Origin: the human T2T-CHM13v2.0 reference genome, Homo sapiens
Assembly: GCA_009914755.4 (NCBI GenBank)
Contig: CP086569.2
Coordinates: 2,208,001 to 2,272,000, forward strand
Length of the DNA: 64,000 nt
Direction of reading: 5' to 3'
Below are positions 28,385-53,861 of this stretch, in pieces. How positions within the stretch are numbered: position 1 is the first letter of the stretch; every line of letters starts with the position of its first letter. Below the pieces are notes generated by a model that made no database searches, had not been told where the DNA came from, and saw only the letters and a list, made by a program, of their open reading frames with translations. A program made the translations under genes and the position numbers.

Positions 28385-29010
28385 AAAGTAATAGGTAGAT
28401 AGACAAATAGATGGATGGATGGGCGGGGTAAGTGGATGAATGGATAACTGGATAGAAAGTTGGGTGCATAGATGGATGAATTATTAGGTGGATTAATGGA
28501 TGGACAGATAGATGGGTAAATGGATAAGTGGGTAGCTAGGTAGTTGGATAGTTGATTGGATGAATGGATGGATAGATAGTCAGATAGATGTTATATAGAG
28601 AGATGGATGGATGTATATATGGATGATGGATGGACAGATGGATGGGTGGATGGATGAATGGGTAGATACATAATTGGTTAGTTGATTGAATGAATGGATG
28701 GATAGATAGTTGAATAGATGGTTATAGGGAGAGATGAATGGATGGATATATGGATGATGGATGGGCTGATAAATGGGTAGATGGATGATGGGCAGATAAA
28801 TAGTTGGATAGTTGATTGGACGAATGGGCGGATAGATAGTTGGATAGATGGTTATATGGAGAGATAAAGGGATGATAGATGGACAGACTGCATGGGTGAA
28901 TGGATGCATAGATAGTTGGATAGATACTTGGTTGGATGGATTACAGATGGAAAAATAGATGAATATATGTATGGATAGATAAATAATCGCATAGATGGTT
29001 GGATGGACAG
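28385..29010. repeat. compound (GGAT/GATA/GATG)n minisatellite with about 130-bp higher-order units
   Basis: ggatggatgggcggggtaagtggatgaatggataactggatag...; blocks 28545-28640, 28675-28765 and 28805-28890 are about 85-90% identical; source of the 174-aa reverse ORF 28580-29104. Confidence 0.9.
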
Positions 29011-34513: not shown

Positions 34514-35939
34514 CTACCAAGCTAACGGTATACAGGCTAGGGTTCTGTTTTCACAATGACACAAAGAGGTGCACCTGAGCCATGTGGTTTCAAAAAATAT
34601 TTTATTTTCTGGAATAGCCATAATATCTCAGCTCTGTCTTTATGCCCTCTCTCCACACGGAGGAGGCAGAAGCTATGACAACACTGAGGTGCCACACATC
34701 ACACCTGCAAAACAGAATAATGGGAGCGTTTAGGAGACTGTAGAAAATGCTCACCAGGGTGCATACAGACAGGATGGGGGCTGGGCATTGCTGGGCTGCT
34801 GCTGTCTGTCAAGGACATTCAGAGAGATATACATGTCCCCGGGGCAGGGCCCGCCTCCATCTTCATCTCTTCTCTCTCATGTGTCAAATGAAGCAGAGGA
34901 AAAACAGCAGAGAGTCCTTCACGGCTGCTGGACTAGGCAATGCAACTCTCACAAGTGATGAGATTGAGAATGTGCCTTACACATCCCGTAGGTCTGGCGG
35001 TCACGAATGCGAGATTTGCTTCTAGAAATTTCTGGGACTCTTGTTTCATGTGCAAAGTGCCTAGTCTGTATCTGTAGGGCGATGCTGTTCTTCCAAGACA
35101 TGATTTTTCCTTTTTACAACAGACAGGATAGGAATATTTGGGGTCACTTGGCAACAATGATGATGGGGAATCCTCTGTATCTCTTCCCTGGAGCATTTGC
35201 TCTGCACACAGAAGGAAGCCATTTGCACTGGATGGAGTCTGTATGAAGCTGGCAGCATGGATTGCATTGGAGAGTTAAGTAGGGCAAGCCCCCCAGTTGC
35301 ACCTACTCTAACGATGGTATAATCTGAAGCTGATTTGTCCTGTGGACGTCTCTAGCCAGTAATAAGAGTAAACAGTTCCAATGGGCTTCCCTTGGGCATT
35401 GGAACCCCTGTGAATTCCGACTCTGCACAAGAGCAAGGTGGACGAAAACTTCACAACAGAATGGGCCAGGCAAGGGGGCAGAGATGGCTGGATGGGACCA
35501 CAAGGATGGATGGAGGTTACAGATGCCAGCATGGCCCCAGAGGTGACACTGCCCATGAGTCCTGGTTACCCAGTGATGGCTTGGCAGGATGAGTGACGGG
35601 TGGGGAAGATGGCCTTTATCCTTATTGACAGTCATCTCACCCTTCACTCCTGCAGTGCAGCTGGGCTGACATGCTGGTGGACGTTCTTCAGAGAAGGGCC
35701 AAGCTGTGACCTTCAGAGATCCATCCCTCCACACTGGAGTCCTGGCCTACTGGTAGCTTATGAGGGGGATGCTCTTACAACTCCTTGGCTTGCAACTGGC
35801 ATGCAGGCAAACTGAAGACTCCACAGCCACTCCATCACTTTAGGGGCCCTAAGCAGATGCAAAGAGAAGGAAAAAAAAGAGTAAGAAAAAAAAAATCAAT
35901 GGTAATCTGATGAAGGGTTACCCCCCACCGCCGCCTCCT

Positions 35940-36320
35940 GCTCTCTTTAGAGACGGGGTCTGGCTCTGTTACCCAAGCTGGAGTGCAGAGGTGCAATCAC
36001 AGCTGACTGTAATCTCAAACCCTTGCACTTTTTAATCTTTTTTAGAGATGGGGCCTGGCTCTGTTGCTTAGGCTGGAGCACACTGGCGCAACCATAGCTG
36101 ACTGTCATCTTAAACGCCTGGGCTTAAGCAATTCTTTTATCTCAGTCTCCTGAGTGGTTAACGCTACAAGTGTGTGCCACCAAGCAGATAATTTTTAATT
36201 TTTTTTTTTTTGTCTCATTAAGTTTCCCAGGCTGGTCTTGAACTCTTGCACTCAAGTAATCCTTCCACCTCAGCCTCCCGAAGTGCTGTGCTGACAGGCA
36301 TGAGCCACGGCATCCAGCCA
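35940..36320 (-). mobile_element. degenerate Alu/FLAM-like monomer fragments (reverse)
   Basis: agagacggggtctggctctgttacccaagctggagtgcagaggtgcaatcacagctgactgtaatctcaaaccc...; ...ggtcttgaactcttgcactcaagtaatccttccacctcagcctcccgaagtgctgtgctgacaggcatgagccacggcatccagcc. Confidence 0.65.
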
Positions 36321-36329
36321 GTACATCTC

Positions 36330-37460
36330 TTTAATGCTACTGAGAAGTCATTTCACCCAGCACTTTGGTTCCTAGTATCATGTTCAAAAAAAAGAACCAG
36401 GGCTCTCTGGAATAATGGTTAATTCTAAGAACGGAGCTTGGGTGATACAGATAGGCCTGGACCATCTTGTAGTACAAGAAAATAAGAAAATGCTCAAATA
36501 CACAAAAAAATGGGGGTGCGTGAAAGATAAGCAAAAGCCAACATGAAAGAGCTCCTGGTGCTCAAAGCTGAAACAATTTGGGCAATAAAATAAAATAATA
36601 TTAGATGGCAACCCAAAGCAATCAATTATTGAATAAAAACATAAATGAAGGAGGAGATACAAATCCCCTGTGCAGAAGAGTCCCATCCAAGTAATTGATG
36701 TAGATATTTTATTCTCAAGAAGATGAAACATAACTCCCCACTCCTTTAAGTGTGGGTTGCATGTAGAGACTTCCTTTCAAAGAGCATGGTCAGGAGATCA
36801 ATAACTTTTCAGTGGAGAAATCTGACAAACACCACCTCAGACGTGATCAAGGCCAAAGTCAACAATGGTAGGTCAGGCTGACAGTATGTACCTTGATATG
36901 ATGTAATAAGAATGACTCTTCATCGCTGCCGTCATCCTCTCCAAAGCCAACCACCCTAGTCTCACCATGAGAAAAGTTGCAGACAAATCCCAACAGAGGG
37001 ACAGCTTGACAAAATACCTGACCCGTTGTCCTCAAGACAGTGTTTCTCGTATAGTCTGCAGCACCGTGAGCCAAATAAACCTCTTTTCTTTATAAATCAC
37101 TCAGCTCAGTTACTCCTCTATAGCAATACAAAATGGACTAATACACAAGCCACATCCAAGTGCCATTTGTGGCAAGGGGCCCTTGTATGGTCTGCAGGCC
37201 TTGCTTTGGATGACCTTGAAGTAAGGTCTTGTATTTGACTCTTGAACAGTCTGCAGAACTGTGAGCCAAATAAATATCTTTTTAATAAATAAACCCATAC
37301 AAGAGTCATGTACAAGACCTTGCTTCGAGGTCATGAAAAACAAGGCAAGTCTCAGAAACTGTCACAGCCAAGAGGAGGCATGACTCAATGTAATGTGGGT
37401 TCTGGAGGAGATCCTGGGACAGAAAGAGGACATCAGGAGGAAAGTAGTGAAGTCCAGTAA
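36330..37460 (+). mobile_element. MaLR (THE1/MST-type) internal sequence with rearranged LTR-end fragments
   Basis: ...tgtcacagccaagaggaggcatgactcaatgtaatgtgggttctggaggagatcctgggacagaaagaggacatcagg (THE1-int 3' motif); LTR-end motifs 'ctgcag(c/a)actgtgagccaaataaa...ctttataaa...ggactaatacac' at about 37040-37145 and about 37245-37300. Confidence 0.55.
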
Positions 37461-37474
37461 ACAGAAGAGTTTAG

Positions 37475-37835
<361 letters not shown>

Positions 37836-38264
37836 GCATTTTTCCATTTATAGATTGCCTTTATTCTGCATATGGTAGAACCAAATGGAAGTCAAGACAC
37901 AAGCATCTGGGGTGCTGGAGCCTGAGAAGACCTGTCTGGAGCTTGACAGAAATTCTGAATCCCCACCGACTCTCAGTCTACCCAGAAAGACAATGACCCA
38001 ATAAAGAAACAGACTTTAGTCCTGTGTGAATTTGCTTGGGCTGTGTGTGGGGAGGCCCCTCCATCAGGGATAGTTCTGGCTAAATATCGCATGTGGAAAA
38101 CTACCAGATGGTTGAGAGTGAAGATGAGAGAAGAGCCAGGGAGGGAAGAGATGCTTTCTTCAGGGCCAGGGGAGAGAAATTCCATAAGAAAAGCATAGGG
38201 TTAGCTGGAAGACAAAATGAGACTTGTGCTATCCAGATTGGGGGCACCAGCCACAAATGGCATT

Positions 38265-38700
38265 TGGATGTGGTGTCTTCGTCCATTTTGTATTGCTATA
38301 AAGGAATATCCCAGGCTGGGTGACTTATTAAAGAAAAGGGGTGTATTAGGCTTACCGTTCTGCAAACTCTATAAGAAGCAAGCATGGTGTTGGCATCTGC
38401 TCAGCTTCTGGTGAGGCCTCAGAAAGCTTTTACTCATGGAGGAAGGCAAGGGGAACCAGAGCGTCACATGGTGAAAGAGGGAGCAAGAGAGAGAGGAGGA
38501 GGAGCCAGGCTCTTTTTAACAATCAGCTCTTGCATGAACTAATACTGTGAGAACTCGCACATTACCATGAGGATGGCACCAAGTCATTCATGAGGAATCT
38601 GTTCCTGTGACGGAAACACCTCCCACCAGGCCTCACCTCCAACACGGGGGATGCTATTTCAACAGGAGATTTGGAAGGGACAAACACCCAAAGGATGTCA
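38265..38700 (-). mobile_element. MaLR LTR (MST/MLT1-like), reverse
   Basis: gtccattttgtattgctataaaggaatatcccaggctgggtgacttattaaagaaaaggggtgtattaggcttaccgttctgcaaactctataagaagc...cctcccaccaggcctcacctccaacacgggggatgctatttcaacaggagatttggaagggacaaacacccaaa. Confidence 0.7.
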
Positions 38701-38779
38701 GTTCATTTGAATTGAGATGTGCTGTAAATGTACAATAGACACTGGATTTGAAGACTTGGTGTGAAAAAAGAATGCGCGC

Positions 38780-39070
38780 TATCTCACTCATAACTATATA
38801 TACAATTCTAATATATTCTAAATAGCTATATATACTATTCTAAATCTATTCTAAATAACTACATATACTATCCTAAATAATTCTAAATAACTACATATAC
38901 AACTCTAAATCTATTCTAAATAATTCTAAATAATGATATATACAACTCTAAATCTATTCTAAATAACTATATATACAATTCTAAATCTATTCTAAATAAC
39001 TATATATATAAAATTATAAATATATTCTAAATAACTATATATAATTCTAAATAATTATACCTATATATAC
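38780..39070. repeat. AT-rich minisatellite, about 33-bp unit x about 8
   Basis: (aactatatatacaattctaaatctattctaaat)n with variants. Confidence 0.85.
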
Positions 39071-39204
39071 AATTCTAAATACATTCACACATATATTTTT
39101 AAAATATAAATTTGAAATAAATTGTGTATATGTATACAATTATTTTATATACTTATAAAATATATATATTCATTTATGACATTTATACATATATGTTTAT
39201 ATAG

Positions 39205-40475
<1,271 letters not shown>

Positions 40476-41137
40476 TGACGGGTAGAGTTCTTCCAGACCC
40501 TGAAAACCTGGGGCATCCAGGGAAAATACAGAAACAGGGCTCCGGGTACCTCAGTGGAGTACTAGGTGGGGCTGTAGCCACATAGCTGTGTTCCCCTGAG
40601 GCCCCCAAAAGCCCCATGATCTCCAGGGACACCGGGCTGGGCAGGCTGCTATTCCACCTCTCACCTCTTTGAACCCCAGTCCCTCCACCTTTCACAGTGG
40701 CATAAAGACTCTTCCCAATTAGGATGACCCAAACATCTGGGTCAAGGAAGATTCAGTGACCCAGGGACCTGTCCTTGCTCCAGGCAAATCAGTTGGAGCA
40801 ACTTGGAAGTGACTAGATATTTATTCTGAGCACTTGGGACGAAGCTTGGGGGTATAGGGAATTCCTTGATACCTTCTCAAAGAATTCAAAGTCTACTGAA
40901 AAGGGCTTTCCTTCACTTGAGTATCTCAAATATTCATCTGGGAACGCTATCTACCACCTCCTGAATCGCTGCTATTGGTAAGATAATGGGTTGATCTCCA
41001 CAAATTATAATGATGATCACACTTGCTAGCCCCAGGAACCAGCCGCATCCAATTCAGCTTTTGCAAGGAATCTAATTCCTGTCTGTCTCTTCCCCACCTG
41101 TAACTCTATAAATCTTATCTTTAAGAATGGGTGGGGG

Positions 41138-41776
<639 letters not shown>

Positions 41777-42134
41777 CTAATTATGTTCTAGGTATGGCAC
41801 CGCTTTCAGAGTCAGTTTCCAGATGTGCAATTTTAGTACACAAGAACCTTTATCAGCCCCTTACTTTCTCTGTTTCTTCATGAATCCTTGAGGCAGAGGT
41901 CCAACATGGAGAATCATGGTGCTCAATGAGTGGTGGACCTTGGCCAGGTGACTTGGGCCTAAGGCAGCATGTCTGTCGAGTGATGATCATGTCACTCACC
42001 TGCCAAAGCTTACGTGTGGATAAGGTGTTGTCATAAGGTGGGTTCCCCAGACACAGAGACTGAGGTTGGGATTCAAAGACATAGAGCATTTGCAGAGGGA
42101 GGGAGGGAAGCCCGTTTAAAAAGGCACTAAGCCG

Positions 42135-42435
42135 GCCAGGGGTGGTGGTGGCTCACGCCTGTAATCCCAACACTTTGGGAGGCTGAGGCAGTTGGATCAG
42201 GAGGTCAAAAGATCAAGACCATCCTGGCCAACATGGTGAAACCTCATCTCTACTAAAAATACAAAAATTAGCCGTGCGTGGCAGTGTGCACCTGTAGTCC
42301 CAGCTACTCGGGAGGCTAAGGCAGGAGAATCGTTGAACCCGGGAGGCGGAGGTGGCAGTGAGCTGAGATCGCACCACTGCACTCCAGCCTGGTGACAGAG
42401 TGAGAATCCGTCTCCAAAAAAAAAAAAAAAAAAGG
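42135..42435 (+). mobile_element. Alu with TSD aaaaaggcact(a/g)ag
   Basis: gccggccaggggtggtggtggctcacgcctgtaatcccaacactttgggaggctgaggcagttggatcaggaggtc...ctggtgacagagtgagaatccgtctccaaaaaaaaaaaaaaaaaa. Confidence 0.9.
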
Positions 42436-42537
42436 CACTGAGGCATGATTTGGTCTCAGGACATATCTCAACCTGGTCAACAGCAGGCTCTGGAATACAA
42501 ATTGGGCTGCAGAATTTGCTGCCTTTGGGCATGGAAG

Positions 42538-42590
42538 TATGTGTGTGTGTGTGTGCGCGCGCGCACATATGTATGTGTGCATGCATGATC
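42538..42590. repeat. (TG)n(CG)n(TG)n alternating purine-pyrimidine tract
   Basis: gtatgtgtgtgtgtgtgtgcgcgcgcgcacatatgtatgtgtgcatgcatg. Confidence 0.9.
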
Positions 42591-42974
42591 TCACGTGCTG
42601 TGGCTTCCTCTACCTGAAATGAATCTTCACCTTAGCGTTATCTGGATAACTGTATCTTGACCTTCAGGGCTACACCAAGCATCACGATGCCTTAAACATC
42701 TCCTCCCAAGCCCACCTGGGTTCTTCCTCCATGTTCCTGTAGCACAGAGACTCTGAGATCTGTCTGCCAGCTGTTTTATGGCATGTGGCCCGGACTTCTG
42801 TTATACCCTGGATCAAAATGTACCACAATTATCAAATAACCTTGCCATCTCCCCAGCTGGGAATTTACACTCAGAGCAGGAACCAGGTTTGTCCAGTATT
42901 ATAACTGCTGGTACATAAGAGCCAGGAAAGGTTTGTTAAATGAGTGTTTCAGGCTAAATTGTGTCTCTTCGAAA

Positions 42975-43560
42975 TGCCCATGTTGAAACCTTAGCCCTCA
43001 TTTGTGACGGTGTTTGAAGATAAGGCCTTCAAAGAGGTCATTATGCGAAAATTATGTCATTAGGGTAGGGCCTGATCCAACAGGACTGGTGCCCTTATAA
43101 GAAGAGGAGACGAGGACACAGACACACACAGAGGGTTGACCCTGTGAGGACACAGGGAGAAGACGGTGTCTACAAGCCCAGGAGAGAGGCCTCAGGAGGA
43201 ACCAGCCCTGCCCACACCTGGATCTCGGACTTCCAGCCTCCAGGACTGTGGGAGAATCAATGCCTGTTGCTTATAAGCCACCCAGTCTATGGTATTCTGT
43301 GATAGCAGCCTGAGATGGACTAAGACACTTCATAAGAAGAGGAGATGAGGACACAGACACACAGAGGGGCGACCCTGTGAGTACACAGGGAGAAGATGGC
43401 GTCTACAAGCCCAGGAGAGAGGCCTCAGGAGGAACCAACCTTGCCCATACCCTGATCTCAGACTTCCAGCCTCCAGGCCTCCAGGAGAATCAATGTCCCT
43501 TGTTTAAGCTTCCAAGTTTGCGGTCCTTTGTTATGGCAGCCTTAGCAAACTAATACAATG
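42975..43560 (+). mobile_element. MaLR LTR, MLT1-type, with internal about 235-bp tandem duplication (or two tandem LTRs)
   Basis: 'cttataagaagaggagacgaggacacagacacacacagagggttgaccctgtgaggacacagggagaagacggtgtctacaagcccaggagagaggcctcaggaggaaccagccctgcccacacctggatctcggacttccagcctccagg' occurs twice (about 43090 and about 43325); ends ...gcagccttagcaaactaatacaatgaatgaatcaa. Confidence 0.6.
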
Positions 43561-43892
43561 AATGAATCAAACAGCACATGTATTACAATTCTAGTTGTGC
43601 TATCCAATAGAATAGCCACCAGCCACATGTGGCTGTTTACGTTTAAATCAATATAGCTCAATAAAAATAAATATTCAAGCCTTGAATGAAACCATACTCA
43701 ACAGCCACTTGTGGTTGGTGCTTCCAACATTGCAGTTGCCTTCCTCCTCAAGAGTCGTGTTCTTGGTTGAATTCATCTCCTCTGCCCCTGAGGAAAGCAC
43801 CCGTTGTCTCTCCGCACTTCTGAAGGTTTACTGCCCCACCATCTGTCCCCAGATGGAGAACCCTTGCAGGATGCAAGGGGATATTGAAATGA

Positions 43893-44225
<333 letters not shown>

Positions 44226-44229
44226 AATG

Positions 44230-44478
44230 ATGTTTGCAGTGGTTAGGGTGGCTCACACGTGTAATCTCAGCACTTTGGGAGGCTGAAGCAGGAGGATCAG
44301 TTGAGCCCAGGAGTTTGAGAACAGCCTGGGCAACGCTGACAAAACCGCATGTCTACAAAAAAATACAAAAATCAGTCTGGTATGGTGCTACATGCCTGTA
44401 GTCCCAGCTCCTCAGGAGGCTGAGGTGAGAGAATCACCTGTAGTCCCAGCTACTCAAGAGGGTGAGGCAGGAGAACCG
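44230..44478 (+). mobile_element. Alu (AluJ-like), 3'-truncated at about Alu position 218, with internal duplication
   Basis: gtggttagggtggctcacacgtgtaatctcagcactttgggaggctgaagcaggaggatcagttgagcccaggagtttgagaacagc...ggtgaggcaggagaaccgcttgaaccag. Confidence 0.8.
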
Positions 44479-44705
44479 CTTGAACCAGATTCAGCTCACT
44501 GCAACCTCCACCTCCTGGGTTCAAGTGATTCTCCTGCCTCAGTCTCCTGAGTAGCTGGGATTACAGTTTCCTGCCACCACATCCAGCTAATTTTTGTTTT
44601 GTTTTTTTTTTTTTTTTTTTTAAGTAGAGACAGGGTTTCACCATGTTGGCCAGGCTGGCCTCGAACTCCTGAAACTCAAGTGATCCCGCCTGCCTCGGCC
44701 TCCCC
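44479..44705 (-). mobile_element. Alu (reverse), truncated at about Alu position 245; abuts the previous Alu head-on
   Basis: attcagctcactgcaacctccacctcctgggttcaagtgattctcctgcctcagtctcctgagtagctgggattacag...gtagagacagggtttcaccatgttggccaggctggcctcgaactcctgaaactcaagtgatcccgcctgcctcggcctcccc. Confidence 0.8.
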
Positions 44706-44770
44706 AAAGTTTTTTTCTTAAGCATCTTTTTTAGATGCCTTTGTTCTCATATTTCTGTTTGCCTCTACTA

Positions 44771-45235
<465 letters not shown>

Positions 45236-45629
45236 ATTCATTTAGCTTTCATCGTAATTACAGTCACACTTCACACACATGGGAATTAGGGAGCCAGGAA
45301 GAGTAATGCGGCAATGCCCTGTGTTCAGACCACTATTAATGGGTAGGCTTTGGGGATACTTTGCTTTTCTCTTTCACTAATGATGTCTGTCCATTTTCCC
45401 CGAGGATCTTTTCGGGAGCCTTCTGTGTGGTGGGCCCACTTACGACCTGAATCACCGCATTCACGCCAACAGTACCAACCCATAGGTATGCTTAGTCATC
45501 TGATGACTCAGAGACAGGGGGTAGGCGGATGGAATGGAAGGATGAGTCTGGTCAGATGGTAAGAGATAGTACAATGACATGAAAAATAGCCACCACTGAC
45601 CACTGGCAACCTGGCCTTGAGATCCCTAG

Positions 45630-45956
<327 letters not shown>

Positions 45957-47376
45957 TGAGCGCATAATTACAGACAGTCTTCACCTTCCCCAGAGGAAAA
46001 CATAACAGCCTATCCCAAGGTTTCGTAATAAAAGCGTAAAATTGTCATAAACCCACAGTAGGTGTTCAATAAATGCATACATCTTGTTCCCACACCCGAA
46101 AAATCCTAGTTAGGAGGTGACCGAGGAGAGTTTACAACACAAATTGCACCTGAGGTTTTGCACACGAGTGAGTTTGATCCCTTTCCTCCAGAAGGCCGGC
46201 TACTCATTCAAAGGGCCCAGTTTGTTTCAAACTATTTTTGGAACTGTTTCAGAATTGCCTCCAAGCGCCTGTCTAGACCTTACCTTACACTGGCGCTATT
46301 TTGAGCTAAAAGCCATATTGATTAAATTGGCTTCTAAAGTTATCCCCCAGACTTGGCGCTGAAGGAGGCTTAGGTATTTCCAAAAATCCTAGCCTCTGCC
46401 TGGAAGGCTCCCCAGCTAAGGATGCAAGACAAGGACCAAGGACGACATTTCTTGAAAGATCCTGCCTCTGGGGATAGTTTCGGAAAGGAAGTGCTCAGGT
46501 TTGTGAGACAGCAGCAGGGCCCTGGGACCTTTCTCTGATGGGGGAATATCCCCCTCTAGGTCAGCACGCCCCATCACAGCACTGCATCTACTGTAGGTAC
46601 CTCCAAAGTCACCCTTTCTATTTCACTCATGTTTCCCTTGAATTTACACTTTACATGTTGCTAGACCAAATCGGCGGAGGGGAAAAAATAACTCATGGAA
46701 ACATGATCTTTTTAGAAATGGCATTACTCAGAAAGCACAGCAGGGGTTTGGCTTATGGTACGGTGTTGTTTTCCTGCTTTGAGGCGCTGTTACAGATTCT
46801 TCTTCCCACTGTACAGCTTCCCGGCCTGACATGCTGCCTTGGGAAGTGCGTGAAAGTGAACGCAGCCTCCTCTTCCTCTTAGGAGTCCTCCGTTTCGTGT
46901 CTCTTACATCCTGAAAGGACCCAGCTCTCTGAGTCAGGCCGCGGCACTGCCCCTCCTAGCTCCAAATCCACATCTATTTCCCACTTCACTTTCTAAGTGG
47001 GATTTAGCTTAACACTGTGGAGCTTGGAGTATCACAGAGCTAATATGTAAGACCCAGGCTGGTCTTTCCTTCTCTGTCGGCACCTTGGAATTCTCTACTA
47101 CCTTTCAGCCTGCCTCTCCGCTCCCCCCGCTTTTTTTTTACAGACATCTGCAATGCAGGCAAGTTCCAATATGAACATCTGTGGAACACAGCCTGAGAAG
47201 AGGAGATATAAAAGGATCTTAATTTTAGGGTGAAGGAGGAGAAGAATGGTTAAGAAGCGTCTCAATAACCTAAGCCACAACCTCAGGCTTTGAAAACAAC
47301 ATTAACTGAGAACAGCTTTGAAAACAACAGTGAGATTTTCAACTCAATTCTTTTTCCCACAGGTCACTTATCTTGA

Positions 47377-47720
<344 letters not shown>

Positions 47721-47964
47721 AGAGTGAGATTTTCAACCCAATTCTTTTTCCCCCATGTCACTTATCTTGAATTCCAAAATGTTTACTTCTGCTAAAGAAT
47801 CTTTTTTTTTTCAGTGATATAAATTTGGAAGGTATGTCAATACTCTTATCCAGTGTAAAGTCCTATGACCCAAACACGTGCGTATTCGTCTCTCCTCCCC
47901 GCTACACTTCCCTTGGGGAAGTGCACACAACAAGGCAAACAAACACCTCTGACCACTTCTGAGG

Positions 47965-48502
<538 letters not shown>

Positions 48503-48810
48503 TAGATGTTTTGTCTTGCTACATCTCAAGCTTCATTACAGATCGAATTTACCCTCTTCCCTCAACTCTTCTTGCACAGAAGCTGAGGTTTCCAGGAGGC
48601 CCTCTCTACCCCTTGGGGGACCTTCCCCTTAAGTTTGGAAGCTGCCAAAACCATGTAAAGGAGATTTTAGGAGGGTCTTTGCACTATATGGGATCCCAAG
48701 AAAAATGCATTTAGGGCCACTTTTTCAGCAGCTTCGCTTTAAGGTTCATTTTTTTTTTTTTTAAGACTCATAAAAATCTTTACAGTTTGGAACACATAAA
48801 ATATATTGAC

Positions 48811-49114
<304 letters not shown>

Positions 49115-49286
49115 TTAAAAATGGAAACCTGTGTGAGCAGTGTCTAGAAACAGATAATTAGCAGTTATTCTGTAATCAATTTTTTAAAAACTTTAAAGAG
49201 AATGATTAATTTTAAACCCTAAAGGAGAGTTGCAAGTAGAAATATAATTTAAAACTTTTGTGTAATATCACTGCAATGGATGTGAG

Positions 49287-49291
<5 letters not shown>

Positions 49292-49323
<32 letters not shown>
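49292..49323. repeat. (CA)n microsatellite
   Basis: cacacacacacacacacacacacacacacc. Confidence 0.95.
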
Positions 49324-49814
49324 CATAAACACACATGTGTGCCACAGGTCCGTTGGTAAAAGCTTGGTTACTGATGATTGAGTTTTTTTCTTTTATTCTT
49401 GGGGAAGTTACATAACCTGTTTTTTTCCAGCCTTATTTTTCCATTCTGTGTAATTGGGATACTAATTATATTCATGTTGCTGTCAGGAGGGTAAAATACA
49501 ATGTATATAATATTATTTTCACTCCAGATCTGGTGTTTAGTAAAACACTCAGCAACTATTAGGTGTAATTGTTATTTATAGGAAACTGTAGGTCTTTTGA
49601 CAGTAATCATAACCACCCTTGCATGTGTGGGTTGTCCATAGAAAATTAAGATAATAGCGCAGAGGTTTCTGTCTCATCATGCTCTTCCCAGCTTCACTGA
49701 GATTGTCCTTTTTTCCAGTCAGGGCTTATCTTTCTAGGTTCCAGGAAAGCATCCTGAGGGATCATGCTGCTGTTTTAATACTCATATCTTCTTTAGGTGT
49801 GAAATACCCAAACG

Positions 49815-50099
49815 GGCCAGGAGCAGTGGCCCACACCTGTCATCCCAGCACTTTGGGAGGCTGAGGTTGGAGGATCACGAGGTTAGGAGTTTGAGACCAG
49901 CCTGGCCAACATGGGTGAAACCCCATCTCTACTAAAAATACAAAAATTAGCCAGGCATGGTGGCACGTGCCGGTAATCCCAGCTACTCAGGAGGCTGAGG
50001 CAGGAGAATCGCTTGAACCTGGGAGGCAGAGGTTGTAGTGAGCCGAGACTGCGCCACTGCCCTCCAGCCTGGGCGACGGAGCAAGACTCCATCTCAGAA

Positions 50100-50132
<33 letters not shown>

Positions 50133-50150
50133 GAAAAAAGAAAGAAAAGA
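49815..50150 (+). mobile_element. Alu with long A/GA-rich tail; TSD gaaatacccaaa
   Basis: gggccaggagcagtggcccacacctgtcatcccagcactttgggaggctgaggttggaggatcacgaggttagg...; gaaatacccaaa(c/t)gg on both flanks. Confidence 0.9.
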
Positions 50151-52061
50151 AATACCCAAATGGTCACCATGATCTAAGCACTCCCTTGGAGAACTGATGG
50201 ATGTCAGTGTGCACTGATGGACATAAAACAGGACCACAGAGAAGAGTCACACTTGTAGAAAGAAATGCCCCCCAATCTCTAGCCAAAAGCTCCAAGTGGG
50301 AGTCTGTGTCACTTCCAGTGACAACTCTGCACTGACTCACTGCGTGACCTTGGGCAAGAAGCACTTCTACCTGCCTTGGTTTGTGGACCTGAAACAGGGA
50401 TGTTAGCACCAACCTGGCATCTTCCCAGGACAGTGGCGCAGATCTGGAGGAACACCTCACGGGAAGGTCTTTTGTAGATCACACAGGAGGCTACACAGAC
50501 ATGAGTTACTGTGATTTCCTTTTGTCTAAAGGTTTCTTTCTGGTTCTAGCCTTGTCTATCTGGGGGAAGGAGACTATCTGTGATGGAGATGAGCGTTCTT
50601 TTCCAAGAGCGTTAATTAGCTGTTCACTTTGTGACTTCGTGAGCGCCCTACCATTTGAATTCTGAATCCCTGCGTTTTGTTCTCATTTGGTGATGAGCCT
50701 TTCAGCAGACATGGTAGTGACTATTAAGTAGGCATTTTAATGCAATCGTTCATAGAATCAATATGTAGACGGCTAGTTTCTAATTTATGAGAAGGCATTC
50801 TCTGGGAAATTGAATAAACAGTGCTCGATTGGAATATGGAAATTTTATATAAGAAAAATAATCCGAGAGAGGCTGAGAATGTACAAGCTCTAAGGAATCA
50901 TCAGATGTGAACAGGACTTCAGCTATCATGTTTAGGGTGAGCTTCGTTAGTGGCTCACATCTAGTTTCAGCTGCAACTGTATTTTCATATCGTTCCCAGG
51001 CAAGCCCCGCGAGTGACTGACTCCACGACCCTGTTTCTTCCCAAACCCTCACCTGAGAAACAGGCTTCTTGGATTAAATCTTCCTTTTCCTATTCGACTA
51101 GCCCGGTGGGTTTGTGCTTGGCGTAACTTTGGGCCCCCTGGGTGGGATGTGCTTGCGTGAAGCTCCAGTAGCTTTTCCTCTGTGCCGGGAATAATTTGCA
51201 AAGCGTCCTATTTTGGATTTTCATAATCAAGCTTCTACCCCGTTTCTTTTCAGTTAATTTAATACCTGGAGCACACGCAGTACTTCAAAAATATTGGTCC
51301 GTTCTGGTGTCAGAGAGTCTTTTTGGACTGAGATGTAAAAGTCCTACATTTGGGTATGTGAGCTGGGAGTTGGGGGGCCAGGCTGAGGAGAAGCAACAAA
51401 TTCCAGAGACAAACTTGGCATCTTGGGAGATGTAATACACGCACCCAGCCACAGAGTCCCAGGAGAATGTATTTTAATGGAGAATGTGGAGGGACTTTGC
51501 AAATGTTTTCATTTTCTCAAATCATATCTGTTATCCTGAAAGTGGTGTCTGTTCCCCCTAACGCCCCCCCGCTCCCTCCCCAACCCTTTGCAGACACTGG
51601 CATCTGTGGACATGAGTTAGGTGCTGCAGTACCACTCACTGTGTCAACTACAGTATTAACTACGGAAAACACACACACAGTCACAGTCACACTGACACTC
51701 ACACCCTAACCATCCCAAATCAGACATTTGCAGTCCCACGGGATTTCCAAAGATTCCCCGGACAAGCAATCTATAGATTATCCTGGGACCAGAAAAAAAA
51801 AAGTCCTAGGATTTTTAGTTTCCTTAACCCTCAAGTGGCTGGAAACTGTTAATCAGAGAGGAATGAACATAAATAACACCAAGCCGAGCTCCGTCTGATC
51901 CGAAGTGAGCCCCCAAACAGCTTCTGTCTGCCCTGATTACCAAAGGAAGCCATGCCCACGCATAAATTGGCAGTCTATTTAAACTGGGTGTTCTTCCTCA
52001 CAGTTTTTTTTTTTTCCCAGAGAAATATTCAAAGGCAGGCATTTTTCTGGCTAAGAAGATA

Positions 52062-52067
52062 TTTATT
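52062..52067 (-). terminator. candidate poly(A) signal AATAAA (reverse strand) about 860 nt downstream of the micro-ORF stop
   Basis: plus-strand tttatt at 52062-52067 is AATAAA on the reverse strand, followed (reverse strand) by ...cttcttagccagaaaaatgcctgcctttgaatatttctc; would end a roughly 1.0-1.7 kb single-exon transcript from the CpG island. Confidence 0.2.
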
Positions 52068-52079
52068 TAAGTCACAGAT

Positions 52080-53830
52080 TGCTTCACCTTCCCAAACTTG
52101 CCCGGCACACTTGGTGTAGGGCAAAGCCTCATCCTTGTCACATCTGTCCCTCTCCCCTCTGGAGCAGGGGCCAGAGGACTTTGGAGGACACCTACTCCCC
52201 CCACCCCCAAGGCTTCGGCTTCCCAGGGGGGGCTTGGCAGTGTGAGAAAGGCAAACCGCCTTCCGACCTGGTTGAAATTTTGTTTCCCATTGCTCCCTAG
52301 AGGTGTCCCTTGGCCGTGGATAACGCTCACTCTGTTCCTAGCCTCGCGCTCACCGTGTTTGTCCATGGAGGTTATAGGGAACTTGAGTGCGGGGTCCCCA
52401 CCGCCGGAGCAGAGGGCTAGGGACCCGATAGCGCCTGGTGTGCCATAGCGCATTGGACCCACCCGAGAGCCCGCGTTCTGCTGCACCGGTGGCGGCCACA
52501 GGCGGGAGCGCCTATGCGCCTTGGACCCAAGGCGCCCAGGGGGTGGGTGGGACGGACCTGGAGGGGGTACAGGGGGGGCCTGCGCCCACCTCTCTGCACG
52601 CGCATCTGCCGCTTCCCGTGCCCCATAGGGGAGCCCCGGGCTCCGTGAATCCTCGGGTTCAGTCCCGCGTCCGGATTCCGCGTCCTCCCCGAAGTTGGGG
52701 CTCCCCAACCGTGGCCCCCCAAAGCGCCCGCACGAGCGCACTCACCCGCTCTCCCCGGTGCGTCCCTGAAGGTCAAGGCCAGGAGGCGGTGGAGGTGCAG
52801 GGCGGGCGGTGGGGCCCGGAGTAGGGGGCGCGGGCGCCGAGCTGGGGGGCACCGCGGGACGGCTCAGTCCCCATGGCCCTGGCGCTGGGGGCGCCCCCCG
52901 CCTGGCGACCCCGGGGGTCCGCGGCGCTCAGATGCCGTGGTCACAGTCCACATCGCGGCAGATGTACCAGAGGATCACGTAGAGGATGAGGAGGATGGCG
53001 AAGATGAAGAGGGCCACCAGGATCGCCTTGGTCACCGGCGAGATGAGAGACTGCATGGCCCCAGCGGGGCGCGCGGGAGGGCGGGGGGCGCGCGGGGGCG
53101 CGGGGCGCGGCGCTCACGACCCCCGAGCGCGCCCGGAGCCCCGCGCCGGCCCCGCGCCGCATCCGCAATGCTCCGTGCCCGGGACAGACGCTGCCTGGGT
53201 GGCTGCTCGGCGGCGGCGGTGGTGGCAGTGGTGGCTGCTCGGAGGCCGGCGCGCTCGGGTGCAGGCGGCTGCGCGCGGGGCTCCCACCGCCCGGGTCCCC
53301 CCAGCTGCTGGCGCTCACCGGGCCCGGCGGCCGCTGGGCTGGGCTGGGGGCACGGGGGGCCCTGGGGGCGGCCGGGAGGAGGGGGCGGCGGCCATGGGGG
53401 AGAGCTGGAGGAAGGCGGCGCGCCGGGCAAGTCCCCCGAAAACTTGGGGCGGAGGCGGCGCGGTGACAGGTGGAAACGCCAGCCCCGCGGGCAGCAGCGC
53501 GCAGCCGTCCACTGGCGGCGGGGGGCGCGGGGGCGCGGGAGGGAGGCGCGGGGGCGAGCGCGCGGGGAGGGGCTGCGGCACTGGGCGGGGGGCCTCCCTT
53601 TGCAGATGGGGAGGGTCGGGGGAGAGCAGGCGTCCCCGACTGCGCGCCTTTCCATCACCTCTCCCACCTCTCTGCTTTTCCCGGCCCCCTCTCTCCAGCG
53701 CAGCGGTGGATATCTCTCTCGTCCAGGTCTTGCATCTCACCCCTTCTTTGGGAGTCCCCTTCCTTTCCTCTTTTCCTCACTCTCACCCTGCACCCCGGTA
53801 TGGGTGAGCTGCGATATTCTCATCAAAGAA
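52080..53830. promoter_or_regulatory. CpG island (promoter-like), very GC- and CpG-rich core 52740-53620
   Basis: dense CpG (gcgcgc, ccgcgg, ggcgcgg) with many Sp1-type GC boxes (gggcgg/ccgccc), e.g. 53064-53110 gcggggcgcgcgggagggcggggggcgcgcgggggcgcggggcgcgg; the only CpG island in the window. Confidence 0.85.
52928..53056 (-). CDS. candidate single-exon micro-ORF, 42 aa, single-pass transmembrane micropeptide (unrecognised)
   Basis: reverse strand atgcagtctctcatctcgccggtgaccaaggcgatcctggtggccctcttcatcttcgccatcctcctcatcctctacgtgatcctctggtacatctgccgcgatgtggactgtgaccacggcatctga = MQSLISPVTKAILVALFIFAILLILYVILWYICRDVDCDHGI*; 20-residue hydrophobic core; codon-position GC 52%/29%/93% (39 of 42 codons end in G/C) against uniformly GC-rich surroundings; Kozak-compatible ggggccATGc; inside CpG island. 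Confidence 0.45.
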   Translation of the reverse strand: MQSLISPVTKAILVALFIFAILLILYVILWYICRDVDCDHGI

Positions 53831-53861
53831 TGAAGGTGCTCATGGAGAGAAGCTGCCCCTT

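What the first reader, a model, noticed from the sequence alone, without database searches (positions are those of the whole stretch)
52928..53056. Self-contained 42-codon ORF for a single-pass membrane micropeptide inside the CpG island (reverse strand), with a strong third-position GC bias
The reverse strand reads ATG...TGA = MQSLISPVTKAILVALFIFAILLILYVILWYICRDVDCDHGI. It has a short polar N-terminus, a roughly 20-residue hydrophobic helix (VALFIFAILLILYVILWYI) and a short Cys/Asp-rich tail, which is the architecture of SERCA-regulin-like or SMIM-type micropeptides. GC content by codon position is about 52%, 29% and 93% (39 of 42 codons end in G or C). The surrounding CpG island is GC-rich at all three positions. 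The 224-aa reverse ORF just downstream (52067-52741), for comparison, shows no such periodicity. This three-base periodicity is the classic signature of selection on a reading frame in a GC-rich region. The ATG context (ggggccATGc) has a purine at -3. The ORF is below the 60-aa cutoff of the supplied ORF track, so it would be missed by standard ORF filters. I cannot match the peptide to any protein I know (not PLN, SLN, MRLN, DWORF, ELN, ALN, SMIM1, OST4, stannin or others recalled). It may be an annotated small-protein gene I do not recognise, or an unannotated sORF.
Basis: partly seen in the sequence, partly recalled or inferred. Interest (0 to 1): 0.78.

Follow-up and report, generated by a model that had tools for sequence, protein, structure and literature searches.

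The report
Unannotated ultra-conserved 42-residue membrane microprotein gene
The 42-codon reading frame is a real protein-coding gene for a tiny single-pass membrane protein, with an amino-acid sequence identical in human and swallow and nearly identical in trout, yet no database or paper searched here annotates it correctly.

Summary
Window 52928-53056 (-) is ATG...TGA and encodes MQSLISPVTKAILVALFIFAILLILYVILWYICRDVDCDHGI. GC by codon position is 52/29/93%.

- Human and swallow differ at 14 nucleotides in 13 codons. All 13 codon changes are synonymous, and only in this frame (codon-pair dN/dS 0-0.016 against the two bird sequences).
- Loci from the swallow, the trout-type contig and the other non-primate contigs align to the window only across the ORF.
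- A spliced, polyadenylated mRNA contig from a 94%-identical primate carries the intact ORF in exon 1. Its donor is at 52745, its acceptor at 35849, and its poly(A) site at 34585.

The peptide is not SMIM36, although UniRef gives that name to one mis-spliced homologue. It matches real SMIM36 at only 40% over 35 residues, which makes it at most a distant paralogue.

No correct RefSeq or UniProt entry exists in the collections searched. Only spurious fused or mis-spliced models were found, including the human Celera model hCG1981875.

The window is human chrX. I infer PAR1, because teleost gene models fuse the ORF to ZBED1 or DHRSX and because the locus lies near the end of X-sized scaffolds in cat and titi monkey.

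The likely product is a tail-anchor-type membrane microprotein that acts through its invariant helix. Translation and function were not tested here.

The parts
52928..53056 (-). 42-codon sORF plus TGA stop (ATG 53056-53054, stop 52930-52928), encoding MQSLISPVTKAILVALFIFAILLILYVILWYICRDVDCDHGI
   Evidence: Translation. Codon GC. All-synonymous divergence from birds and frame specificity. It is the only block that aligns to non-primate loci.
52958..53026 (-). Codons 11-33, the hydrophobic transmembrane helix AILVALFIFAILLILYVILWYIC. Nineteen of its 23 residues are invariant in the six-sequence alignment of both subtypes.
   Evidence: Hydropathy. Invariant columns. AlphaFold2 gives a single helix over residues 7-40 with mean pLDDT 85.
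52746..53056 (-). Part of exon 1 that can be delimited: the sORF plus 182 nt of 3' UTR up to the splice donor. The 5' end (transcription start) is not determined and lies somewhere upstream in the CpG island.
   Evidence: mRNA contig L037 is colinear with the window down to 52745/52746 and then jumps to about 35848.
52740..52745 (-). Splice donor GTGAGT (exon ends ...GAGAGCGG at 52746)
   Evidence: Junction in L037. The donor and 30 nt before it are conserved in titi monkey, Iriomote cat and L003.
35849..52745 (-). Intron of about 16.9 kb (GT...AG)
34585..35848 (-). Exon 2, 1264 nt, all 3' UTR. The AATAAA signal is at 34606-34601 and the cleavage site is at about 34585.
   Evidence: L037 ends in a poly(A) run that is absent from the genome, right after GAAACCA.
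52400..53700 (.). CpG island that holds the sORF (GC 76%, CpG observed/expected 0.82)
52966..52967 (-). Cryptic GT inside codons 30/31 (CTCTG|GTACAT). Many automatic gene models use it to leave the ORF.
   Evidence: Models P0016-18 and P0189-P0197, and human hCG1981875, diverge after residue 29/30 into tails unrelated to each other. The mRNA contig L037 does not use this site.
53160..53162 (-). Upstream ATG in the +1 frame. It opens a 73-codon ORF that overlaps the sORF. Its context is weak (C at -3).
   Evidence: In titi monkey an indel puts this ATG in frame (P0003), so its phase is not conserved.
53393..53395 (-). Upstream ATG in the sORF frame. It opens a 26-codon ORF that stops before the sORF.

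Best explanation
Window 52928-53056 (-) is the complete coding sequence of a real vertebrate protein-coding gene that appears to be unannotated.

The gene has two exons. Exon 1 lies in the CpG island and holds the whole 42-codon CDS plus 182 nt of 3' UTR. A 16.9-kb intron follows. Exon 2 is a 1.26-kb 3' UTR with AATAAA and a poly(A) site.

The product is a 42-residue bitopic membrane microprotein with three parts:
- a 10-residue N-terminal stub ending in Lys10;
- a very hydrophobic helix of about 23 residues;
- a 9-residue acidic tail (R-D-x-D-x-D) after an invariant juxtamembrane Cys33.

The following steps are inferred, not shown.
- The whole chain fits inside the ribosome exit tunnel, so it must insert post-translationally, like a tail-anchored protein.
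- The very hydrophobic helix and acidic (not basic) C-tail point to the ER and secretory pathway rather than mitochondria or peroxisomes.
- The charge balance (+1 N-side, about -3 C-side) predicts N-terminus in the cytosol and C-terminus in the lumen or outside.
- The identities of the helix residues are invariant on every face across roughly 400 million years, not just their hydrophobicity. I therefore infer that the peptide works by packing its helix against a conserved partner membrane protein, as a small accessory or regulatory subunit.

The confidence of 0.85 applies to 'real, selected, protein-coding single-pass membrane microprotein gene'. I put the accessory-subunit mechanism at about 0.5 and the N-in/C-out topology at about 0.6.
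For: Shown here:
- Against Hirundo rustica there are 14 nt differences in 13 codons, all synonymous. Against the bird-like contigs the count is 10 synonymous and 0 non-synonymous; against the Iriomote cat (L002) and L003 it is 8/0 and 5/0; against the trout-type sequence 14/3.
- Nei-Gojobori gives dS 0.44-0.65 with dN 0-0.010. Only 23.8% of sites are synonymous, so 14 synonymous hits by chance is about 2e-9.
- In the other five frames the same substitutions are mostly non-synonymous or the frames contain stops.
- Bird, rodent-like, trout-type and type-B loci align to the window only over about 53075-52914, which is essentially the ORF itself.
- Every type-A orthologue keeps the 42-codon length and the stop position.
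- mRNA contig L037 (94% identical primate) carries the intact ORF. It has a GT-AG junction at a donor conserved in primates and carnivores, and a non-templated poly(A) tail after AATAAA.
- An exhaustive HMM search finds 49 relatives. Those that carry a source name are all vertebrate: human, sheep, goat, reindeer, raccoon dog, pangolin, voles, a flycatcher, trout, cod, catfish and croaker. Salamander, swallow, titi monkey and Iriomote cat come from the first search.
- AlphaFold2 predicts one helix over residues 7-40 with pLDDT 85.
- The ORF is first of 386 in the window for codon periodicity and for hydropathy.
Against: - No ribosome-profiling or mass-spectrometry data could be consulted, so translation is inferred from evolution only.
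- The spliced mRNA comes from a related primate, not from human. The one human-identical contig (L034) is colinear with the genome and may be genomic DNA.
- The transcription start is unknown.
- Two upstream ATGs exist, and one opens an ORF overlapping the sORF.
- The stop codon lies 182 nt upstream of the only exon junction. By the 50-55 nt rule this makes the mRNA a nominal target of nonsense-mediated decay.
- No partner, localisation or phenotype is known. The topology and mechanism rest on general rules.
Confidence: 0.85

Rival explanations
1. The ATG starts a longer, multi-exon protein. The reading frame leaves the sORF at the internal GT (CTCTG|GTACAT, after codon 29/30) and continues in downstream exons, as many database gene models propose.
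For: About a dozen deposited models do this. They include human Celera hCG1981875, sheep, raccoon dog 'protein VASP homolog', Chionomys LOC130869245, swallow, salamander, catfish and a flycatcher.
Against: - The tails after residue 29/30 share nothing with each other. In contrast, the unspliced tail YICRDVDCDHG[IL] and its stop are conserved from primates to the trout-type sequence.
- The exit points differ between models: after L25, Y26 or W30.
- The human model reads straight through the real donor at 52745 in non-conserved frames.
- The only mRNA contig in hand keeps the ORF intact and splices at 52745.
- Fusions to TRPC5, DHRSX and ZBED1 are joins with neighbouring genes.
Confidence: 0.04
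2. The block is conserved for a non-coding reason. It could be a promoter or CpG-island element, an RNA structure, or a regulatory ORF whose act of translation matters but whose peptide does not.
For: It sits in a CpG island. It is in a transcript otherwise free of conserved ORFs. The mRNA has features typical of transcripts classed as lncRNA: a stop far upstream of the junction, and upstream ATGs.
Against: - A non-coding constraint would not put 13 of 14 changes at third positions with zero amino-acid change, nor make that pattern specific to one of six frames.
- Conservation begins at the ATG and ends at the stop.
- A regulatory uORF needs a downstream main ORF, and none is conserved here.
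- Rfam finds nothing in the window.
Confidence: 0.03
3. It is a member of a known functional family. Either it is SMIM36 itself or a close SMIM36 paralogue, as the UniRef name on one homologue suggests, or it is a SERCA-binding regulin in the mould of phospholamban, sarcolipin, myoregulin or DWORF.
For: - UniRef labels the Pleurodeles model 'Small integral membrane protein 36'.
- The peptide shares a pattern with SMIM36: PVT, then ILVA, then a transmembrane segment, then Y-x-CR-x-x-D. BLASTP gives 40% over 35 aa (E 0.001 pairwise) and hhalign gives E 5e-4.
- Gene layout is similar to what the SMIM36 preprint describes, with the CDS in exon 1 and two exons in zebrafish.
- Size and single C-terminal helix resemble the regulins.
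Against: - Real human SMIM36 is a different 93-aa protein on chr17, and its peptides are absent from the window.
- The hhalign probability is only 31% on a low-complexity helix.
- This family lacks SMIM36's 50-residue C-tail, which ends T-x-V.
- The flank charges are opposite. The SMIM36 N-flank is acidic, so the predicted topology is inverted (inference from the sequences).
- The regulin LFxxF motif (named from memory, Anderson et al. 2016) is not present. The peptide reads L16-F17-I18-F19-A20, and LFLFA/LFLFT in type B.
- Regulins have 0-5 luminal residues, whereas this peptide has 9-10 acidic ones.
Confidence: 0.08

Closest known systems
SMIM36 (small integral membrane protein 36; human chr17, 93 aa; found by PhyloCSF, Mudge et al. 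2019, PMC6886504; zebrafish knock-down preprint 10.1101/2023.01.14.524032)
   Same: - It is a vertebrate-wide microprotein with one almost invariant transmembrane helix.
- It shares the local pattern PVT-x(2-4)-ILVA...Y-x-CR-x-x-D.
- Its CDS is confined to the first exon.
- It was itself long missed by annotation.
   Different: - Similarity is only 40% identity over 35 residues, with hhalign probability 31%.
- SMIM36 is 93 aa or longer, with a conserved cytosolic-type tail ending S/T-T-x-V. This peptide stops 9 residues after the helix.
- The flank charges are opposite.
- The chromosomes differ: chr17 for SMIM36, chrX for this gene.
- SMIM36 is annotated in more than 100 species. This family is not.
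SERCA regulins (phospholamban, sarcolipin, myoregulin, endoregulin, another-regulin, DWORF)
   Same: They have the same size class (about 30-60 aa), a single C-terminal helix, tail-anchor geometry, and in several cases were discovered inside transcripts annotated as lncRNA.
   Different: There is no LFxxF motif and no detectable sequence similarity: no Pfam or PDB hit. The C-terminal tail here is longer and acidic. SERCA binding was not tested.
Other deeply conserved membrane microproteins recovered from 'non-coding' transcripts, for example the 25-aa LINC00672 peptide listed by Mudge et al. 2019
   Same: The discovery logic is the same: a short ORF, purifying selection visible only at codon level, and a host transcript that looks non-coding.
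   Different: The sequences are unrelated. This ORF was not found in the held text of the supplements of Mudge 2019, Mackowiak 2015 or Sandmann 2023.

Membership tests
Protein-coding sORF under purifying selection | Excess of synonymous over non-synonymous change, specific to one frame | tested here: met
   Against the two bird sequences there are 13 and 10 synonymous codon changes and 0 non-synonymous, with dN/dS 0-0.016. The other five frames fail.
Protein-coding sORF under purifying selection | Start codon, frame, length and stop preserved across distant species, with conservation ending at the ORF borders | tested here: met
   All type-A orthologues have 42 codons plus a stop. Alignments to non-primate loci are limited to the ORF plus at most about 20 nt.
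Protein-coding sORF under purifying selection | Present in a mature, spliced, polyadenylated mRNA on the right strand | tested here: met
   Contig L037 has a GT-AG junction from 52745 to 35849, AATAAA, and a non-templated poly(A) tail. It comes from a 94%-identical primate, not from human.
Protein-coding sORF under purifying selection | Direct evidence of translation (Ribo-seq periodicity, peptides) | not testable with these tools
   No ribosome-profiling or proteomics data are available here. The peptide strings do not occur in any searchable paper.
SMIM36 | Significant full-length similarity to the invariant SMIM36 core [49 protein letters not shown] | tested here: inconclusive
   BLASTP gives 40% over 35 aa with E 0.001 in a pairwise search. 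hhalign gives probability 31% and E 5e-4.
SMIM36 | A C-terminal tail of about 50 residues ending in the conserved T-x-V, total length 87-109 aa | tested here: not met
   This family ends 9 residues after the helix.
SMIM36 | Identity with the human SMIM36 locus and its detected peptides (EYAPEATLEAQPSIR, GPGLSLGDPAPLGK) | tested here: not met
   Neither peptide occurs in any frame of the window. SMIM36 is on chr17, whereas this window is on chrX.
SERCA regulins | LFxxF motif in the transmembrane helix (feature named from memory, Anderson et al. 2016) | tested here: not met
   The peptide reads LFIFA in type A and LFLFA/LFLFT in type B.
SERCA regulins | Physical and functional interaction with SERCA | not testable with these tools
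   This needs an experiment.
Tail-anchored membrane proteins | A single hydrophobic segment within about 30 residues of the C-terminus and no N-terminal signal peptide | tested here: met
   The helix spans residues 11-33 of 42, the N-terminal stub is 10 residues, and the peak KD score is 3.34.
Tail-anchored membrane proteins | N-terminus cytosolic, C-terminus luminal, with post-translational insertion by GET or EMC | not testable with these tools
   This is predicted only, from charge balance (K10 against D35/D37/D39) and from chain length relative to the ribosome tunnel.

The most novel reading that the evidence does not exclude
This is a still-unannotated, deeply conserved protein-coding gene in the human pseudoautosomal region PAR1. 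It would add to a region whose short list of protein-coding genes (as I recall it) contains no such small membrane protein.

It would also found a new vertebrate microprotein family. The family has at least two subtypes: type A ending ...CRDVDCDHGI, and type B ending ...CRDVDNDYI. Type B occurs in a manatee model, on a goat 144.7-Mb scaffold (about X size), and in contigs from metagenome samples whose label suggests ruminant gut. The family may share an ancient origin with SMIM36.

A gene in PAR1 would be expected to escape X-inactivation (from memory) and so vary in dose with sex-chromosome number. That would make it a new candidate for Turner- and Klinefelter-type dosage effects.
Probability: 0.45. 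Interest if true: 0.78.

Novelty: new member of a known kind. Interest (0 to 1): 0.64.

Why it matters
A 42-residue protein identical in human and swallow, and three residues different in the trout-type sequence, is under constraint as strong as core cellular machinery. Yet it has no name, no correct gene model and no literature in anything searched here.

If it is confirmed, four things follow.
- It adds a protein-coding gene to the human catalogue, probably in PAR1. That region is poorly aligned across genomes, which would explain why conservation-based annotation missed it.
- It corrects a set of wrong database models: human hCG1981875, the 'VASP homolog', 'DHRSX-like', 'ZBED1' and 'TRPC5' fusions, and one entry misnamed SMIM36.
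- It gives a defined target for finding the membrane partner that such an invariant helix implies.
- It shows that a codon-position GC contrast inside a CpG island can flag a missed coding sORF.

Tried and rejected
- Identification as SMIM36. The UniRef name on P0017 led there. I rejected it after recovering the true human SMIM36 sequence from the supplement of PMC6886504. It is a different protein, absent from the window, with weak similarity only.
- An N-terminal extension. I rejected it because there is an in-frame stop 20 codons upstream. The titi 71-aa form arises from an indel that shifts an upstream ATG into frame.
- Long 'homologues' of 145-282 aa (P0025, P0031, P0032, P0165, P0166, P0168, P0171, P0174). 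These are read-throughs of the TGA as Trp by a gene caller (...DHGIW...), so they are artefacts. P0042 (545 aa) is a mis-clustered, unrelated flavoprotein.
- The 35-aa form P0009 (MTKAIL...). It is a gene-caller start at GTG that avoids overlap with a spurious GC-rich ORF, not a different protein.
- Pfam, PDB sequences and Rfam gave nothing significant. The best Pfam hits are below threshold and only match viral or transmembrane segments.
- Literature. Peptide substrings returned zero papers. The supplements of Mudge 2019, Mackowiak 2015 and Sandmann 2023 gave no match, though stored files may be truncated. The Nature 2026 microprotein paper has no held supplements. 'hCG1981875' gave no paper. 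A search for '42-amino acid micropeptide' returned one irrelevant paper.
- A search of the window for DHRSX or ZBED1 exons found none.
Full report
**1. The observation**

The reverse strand of window 52928-53056 reads ATG...TGA and translates to MQSLISPVTKAILVALFIFAILLILYVILWYICRDVDCDHGI.
- GC content at codon positions 1, 2 and 3 is 52.4, 28.6 and 92.9%, with 39 of 42 codons ending in G or C.
- The ORF is a 57% GC trough between flanks of 85% and 78% GC. Read in the same phase, those flanks are GC-rich at all three positions: 84/89/81% and 83/87/73%.
- The neighbouring 224-aa ORF is flat at 68/62/64%.
- An in-frame stop lies 20 codons upstream with no ATG in between, so the ORF is self-contained.
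- The start context is GGGGCCATGC, with G at -3.

ORF length means nothing in this island: 46 ORFs of at least 30 aa overlap 3 kb. But of all 386 ATG-ORFs of at least 30 codons in the 64-kb window, this one is first for GC3 minus GC2 (0.64 against 0.40 for the runner-up). It is also first for hydropathy (3.34 against 2.85).

**2. It is coding**

A protein search found the exact 42-residue sequence on 368 public contigs, plus close variants. I fetched the DNA of 14 distinct orthologous or paralogous ORFs.

| Compared with the window | Synonymous codon changes | Non-synonymous codon changes |
|---|---|---|
| Swallow *Hirundo rustica* (L019) | 13 | 0 |
| Bird-like contigs (L004-L011) | 10 | 0 |
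| Iriomote cat, named from the protein accession (L002) | 8 | 0 |
| L003 (species not named; flanks like L002) | 5 | 0 |
| Trout-type contig (L026) | 14 | 3 |
| Rodent-like contigs (L012) | 11 | 6 |

(All.)

- Against the swallow there are 14 nucleotide differences, 13 at third positions and one at a first position of a Leu codon. The proteins are identical.
- Nei-Gojobori estimates give dS 0.44-0.65 with dN 0-0.010. Only 23.8% of sites are synonymous, so 14 consecutive synonymous hits have a chance of about 2e-9.
- Scored in the other five frames, the same substitutions are mostly non-synonymous or the frames contain stops.
- Outside primates and carnivores, the only part of each locus that aligns to the window is the ORF. 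Examples are L026 252-381 = 53057-52928 and L019 = 53066-52921. The 60 nt on either side cannot be aligned.
- All type-A orthologues keep 42 codons and the same stop.

This is the signature of purifying selection on the peptide, not on the DNA or RNA.

**3. It is in a processed mRNA**

Contig L037 comes from a sequencing-run assembly and is 94% identical to the window, so it is from a related primate.
- It is colinear with the window from 54732 to 52745, then continues at about 35848 and runs to 34585.
- The junction is ...GAGAGCGG|GGCCCC.... The genome has GTGAGT at 52745-52740 and ...CTGCTTAG| ending at 35849.
- The contig ends with AATAAA (34606-34601), 15 nt of sequence, and a poly(A) run that the genome lacks.
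- The donor and the 30 nt before it are conserved in titi monkey, Iriomote cat (L002) and L003.

The gene therefore has two exons. Exon 1 holds the whole CDS plus 182 nt. The intron is 16.9 kb. Exon 2 is a 1264-nt 3' UTR with no conserved ORF.

The contig extends 1.7 kb upstream of the ATG. I cannot tell whether that is 5' UTR or a merge with an overlapping transcript, so the transcription start is open.

Three features may limit expression:
- an upstream ATG at 53162 in weak context, opening an overlapping 73-codon ORF;
- an upstream ATG at 53395, opening a 26-codon ORF;
- a stop codon 182 nt upstream of the exon junction, which by the 50-55 nt rule (established knowledge) marks a nominal target of nonsense-mediated decay.

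In the type-B relatives the donor lies 5 nt after the stop in L016 and L020 (TGAAGCAG|GTAAGG, GTGAAG), and about 41 nt after it in L024. Both distances are inside the safe range.

**4. What it is not**

UniRef names one homologue, *Pleurodeles* P0017, 'Small integral membrane protein 36'.
- The true human SMIM36, recovered from the supplement of Mudge et al. 2019 (PMC6886504), is a different protein. It has 93 aa and lies on chr17: [41 protein letters not shown]...
- Its two mass-spectrometry peptides occur in no frame of the window.
- The two proteins share only PVT...ILVA...Y-x-CR-x-x-D. BLASTP gives 40% over 35 residues (E 0.001 for the single comparison), and profile-profile comparison gives probability 31%.
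- SMIM36 also has a conserved 50-residue tail ending T-x-V, and an acidic N-flank.

A distant paralogy is possible but not shown.

The regulin comparison is architectural only. The LFxxF motif (recalled from Anderson et al. 2016) is absent, since the peptide reads LFIFA. There is no Pfam or PDB-sequence match.

**5. Annotation status**

- The SMIM36 search returned over 100 RefSeq and UniProt entries correctly named. The collection therefore does contain vertebrate RefSeq and UniProt.
- The exact 42-aa sequence carries no UniRef and no nr source. Its only names are 'hypothetical protein', from *Prionailurus iriomotensis* and one other source.
- An exhaustive profile search of 1.84 billion representatives found 49 relatives.

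The named relatives are all wrong models:
- human Celera 'hCG1981875, partial';
- *Chionomys* 'uncharacterized LOC130869245';
- raccoon dog 'protein VASP homolog';
- trout 'DHRSX-like';
- croaker 'ZBED1';
- prairie vole 'TRPC5';
- pangolin 'putative helicase with zinc finger domain';
- manatee 'extensin-like';
- hypothetical or unnamed proteins of sheep, goat, reindeer, cod, catfish and a flycatcher.

Most of these models leave the ORF at a cryptic GT (CTCTG|GTACAT, 52967/52966), or nearby, and continue into tails that share nothing with each other. The human model maps at 91-100% identity to five window pieces (three at 100%) and reads through the true donor.

Peptide strings occur in no searchable paper. 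They also do not occur in the held supplements of three sORF catalogues.

I conclude that the gene is unannotated in everything I could reach. I could not inspect the current GENCODE and RefSeq releases directly.

**6. Where it is**

- The Celera model ties the window to *Homo sapiens* and to a 155.4-Mb contig, the size of chrX.
- The locus lies 1.3-1.9 Mb from the end of X-sized scaffolds in L002 (Iriomote cat), L003 and titi monkey.
- In croaker and trout it sits immediately upstream of ZBED1 and DHRSX on the same strand, close enough for gene predictors to fuse them.
- From memory, ZBED1 and DHRSX are PAR1 genes in human.

I therefore infer, at roughly 0.75, that the window is in PAR1 (Xp22.33/Yp11.3).

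This would explain two things. The first is the 93% GC3: PAR1 has extreme recombination and GC-biased gene conversion, which push every unconstrained site to G or C. The second is the annotation gap: PAR sequences are GC-rich and were poorly assembled and aligned in the genomes that conservation scans relied on. Both explanations are inferences.

**7. How it probably works**

AlphaFold2 gives a single helix over residues 7-40 with mean pLDDT 85. Of the 42 positions, 26 are invariant in an alignment spanning both subtypes, including the run I21-Y31.

The inferences, from established knowledge of membrane-protein biogenesis, are as follows.
- A 42-residue chain is released before its helix leaves the ribosome, so insertion is post-translational, as for tail-anchored proteins.
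- The very hydrophobic helix and acidic C-tail argue for the ER and secretory pathway rather than mitochondria or peroxisomes.
- The charges (K10 on the N side; R34, D35, D37, D39 on the C side) predict N-terminus in and C-terminus out.
- Cys33 is invariant at the interface. Cys38 and His40 are found only in type A.
- The residue identities, not just the hydrophobicity, are fixed on all faces of the helix. An A11-x3-A15 small-residue motif is also invariant. The most economical reading is tight intramembrane packing against a conserved partner protein, as a small accessory or regulatory subunit.

I put about 0.5 on the accessory-subunit mechanism and about 0.6 on the topology. A SERCA-specific role gets under 0.1.

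**8. Verdict**

The object is a new member of a known kind: a conserved transmembrane microprotein gene hidden in a transcript that looks non-coding. Its conservation is exceptional, its position is probably pseudoautosomal, and it has left a trail of wrong database models.

What is missing is direct evidence of translation, a human transcript model, and any functional data.

Noticed in passing
L016-L018, L020, L021, L024/L025 (ORFs at L016:3814-3939, L020:1835-1960, L021:666-800, L024:807-929); proteins P0010-P0014, P0175, P0181-P0187, P0194, P0198: There is a second subtype ('type B') of the same family. It has 40-41 codons, and 44 in L021, and ends ...WYICRD[VLA]DNDYI or ...QDLDNDPI. Its splice donor lies 5 nt after the stop in L016 and L020, and about 41 nt after it in L024. 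It occurs in a manatee model, on a goat 144.7-Mb scaffold (about X size), and in contigs from metagenome samples whose 'XIEF21' label I take to be a ruminant-gut study. Whether human has a type-B copy was not determined.
   Followed up: partly
L016 vs L021; P0186, P0187, P0198: Some type-B copies look relaxed or decaying. L016 and L021 differ by 1 synonymous and 7 non-synonymous codons. The goat copy P0186 has lost its ATG. P0187 and P0198 carry changes inside the otherwise invariant helix. This suggests lineage-specific duplication or pseudogenisation.
   Followed up: no
Protein P0017 (Pleurodeles waltl KAJ1116298.1 / UniRef100_A0AAV7NPJ3): UniRef names this mis-spliced model 'Small integral membrane protein 36'. 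Its first 29 residues belong to the family described here, not to SMIM36, and the rest is a non-conserved tail. The name is misleading.
   Followed up: yes
window 52762-52775 (-): The 14-mer TGACCTTCAGGGAC in the 3' UTR of exon 1, just before the donor, is conserved in human, titi monkey and the Iriomote cat (L002), with two mismatches in L003. The GC-rich sequence around it has diverged. It could be a splicing or 3' UTR element, or a nuclear-receptor-like half-site. This was not tested.
   Followed up: no
window 50344-50882, 51924-52083 and 49357-49512: These blocks in intron 1 are conserved between human and L002/L003 at 66-73% nucleotide identity. No conserved reading frame was examined. 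They may be regulatory elements.
   Followed up: no
window 28496-28883: This is a minisatellite with a 130-nt period (3 copies, 84% matches) built of GATG/GATA-like units. It causes the GC-skew spike of 0.51 in the 28-29 kb bin.
   Followed up: partly
window 38790-39086 and 39510-40063: Two AT-rich tandem arrays, with periods of about 33/65 and 135-140 nt, account for the 24% GC bin at 39-40 kb.
   Followed up: partly
window 52937-53833 (+), 52986-53807 (+), 53032-53667 (-): Long ORFs of 211-298 aa overlap the sORF and the island on both strands. They show no codon periodicity and no conservation. They are the stop-poor ORFs expected in DNA of 76-85% GC, and gene callers on assembled contigs regularly call them.
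   Followed up: partly
Protein P0177 (Microtus ochrogaster KAH0499870.1): A vole gene model joins the sORF's first 35 residues to the C-terminal part of TRPC5. This implies that in voles the sORF lies upstream of TRPC5 exons on the same strand, a different neighbourhood from the ZBED1/DHRSX one seen in teleosts. It may reflect rearrangement of the rodent X or PAR.
   Followed up: no
window 54732-53057 relative to contig L037: The primate mRNA contig continues 1.7 kb upstream of the ATG, beyond the CpG island, without a splice. This could be a very long 5' UTR, unspliced or antisense transcription merged by the assembler, or a divergent plus-strand transcript. It is unresolved.
   Followed up: no
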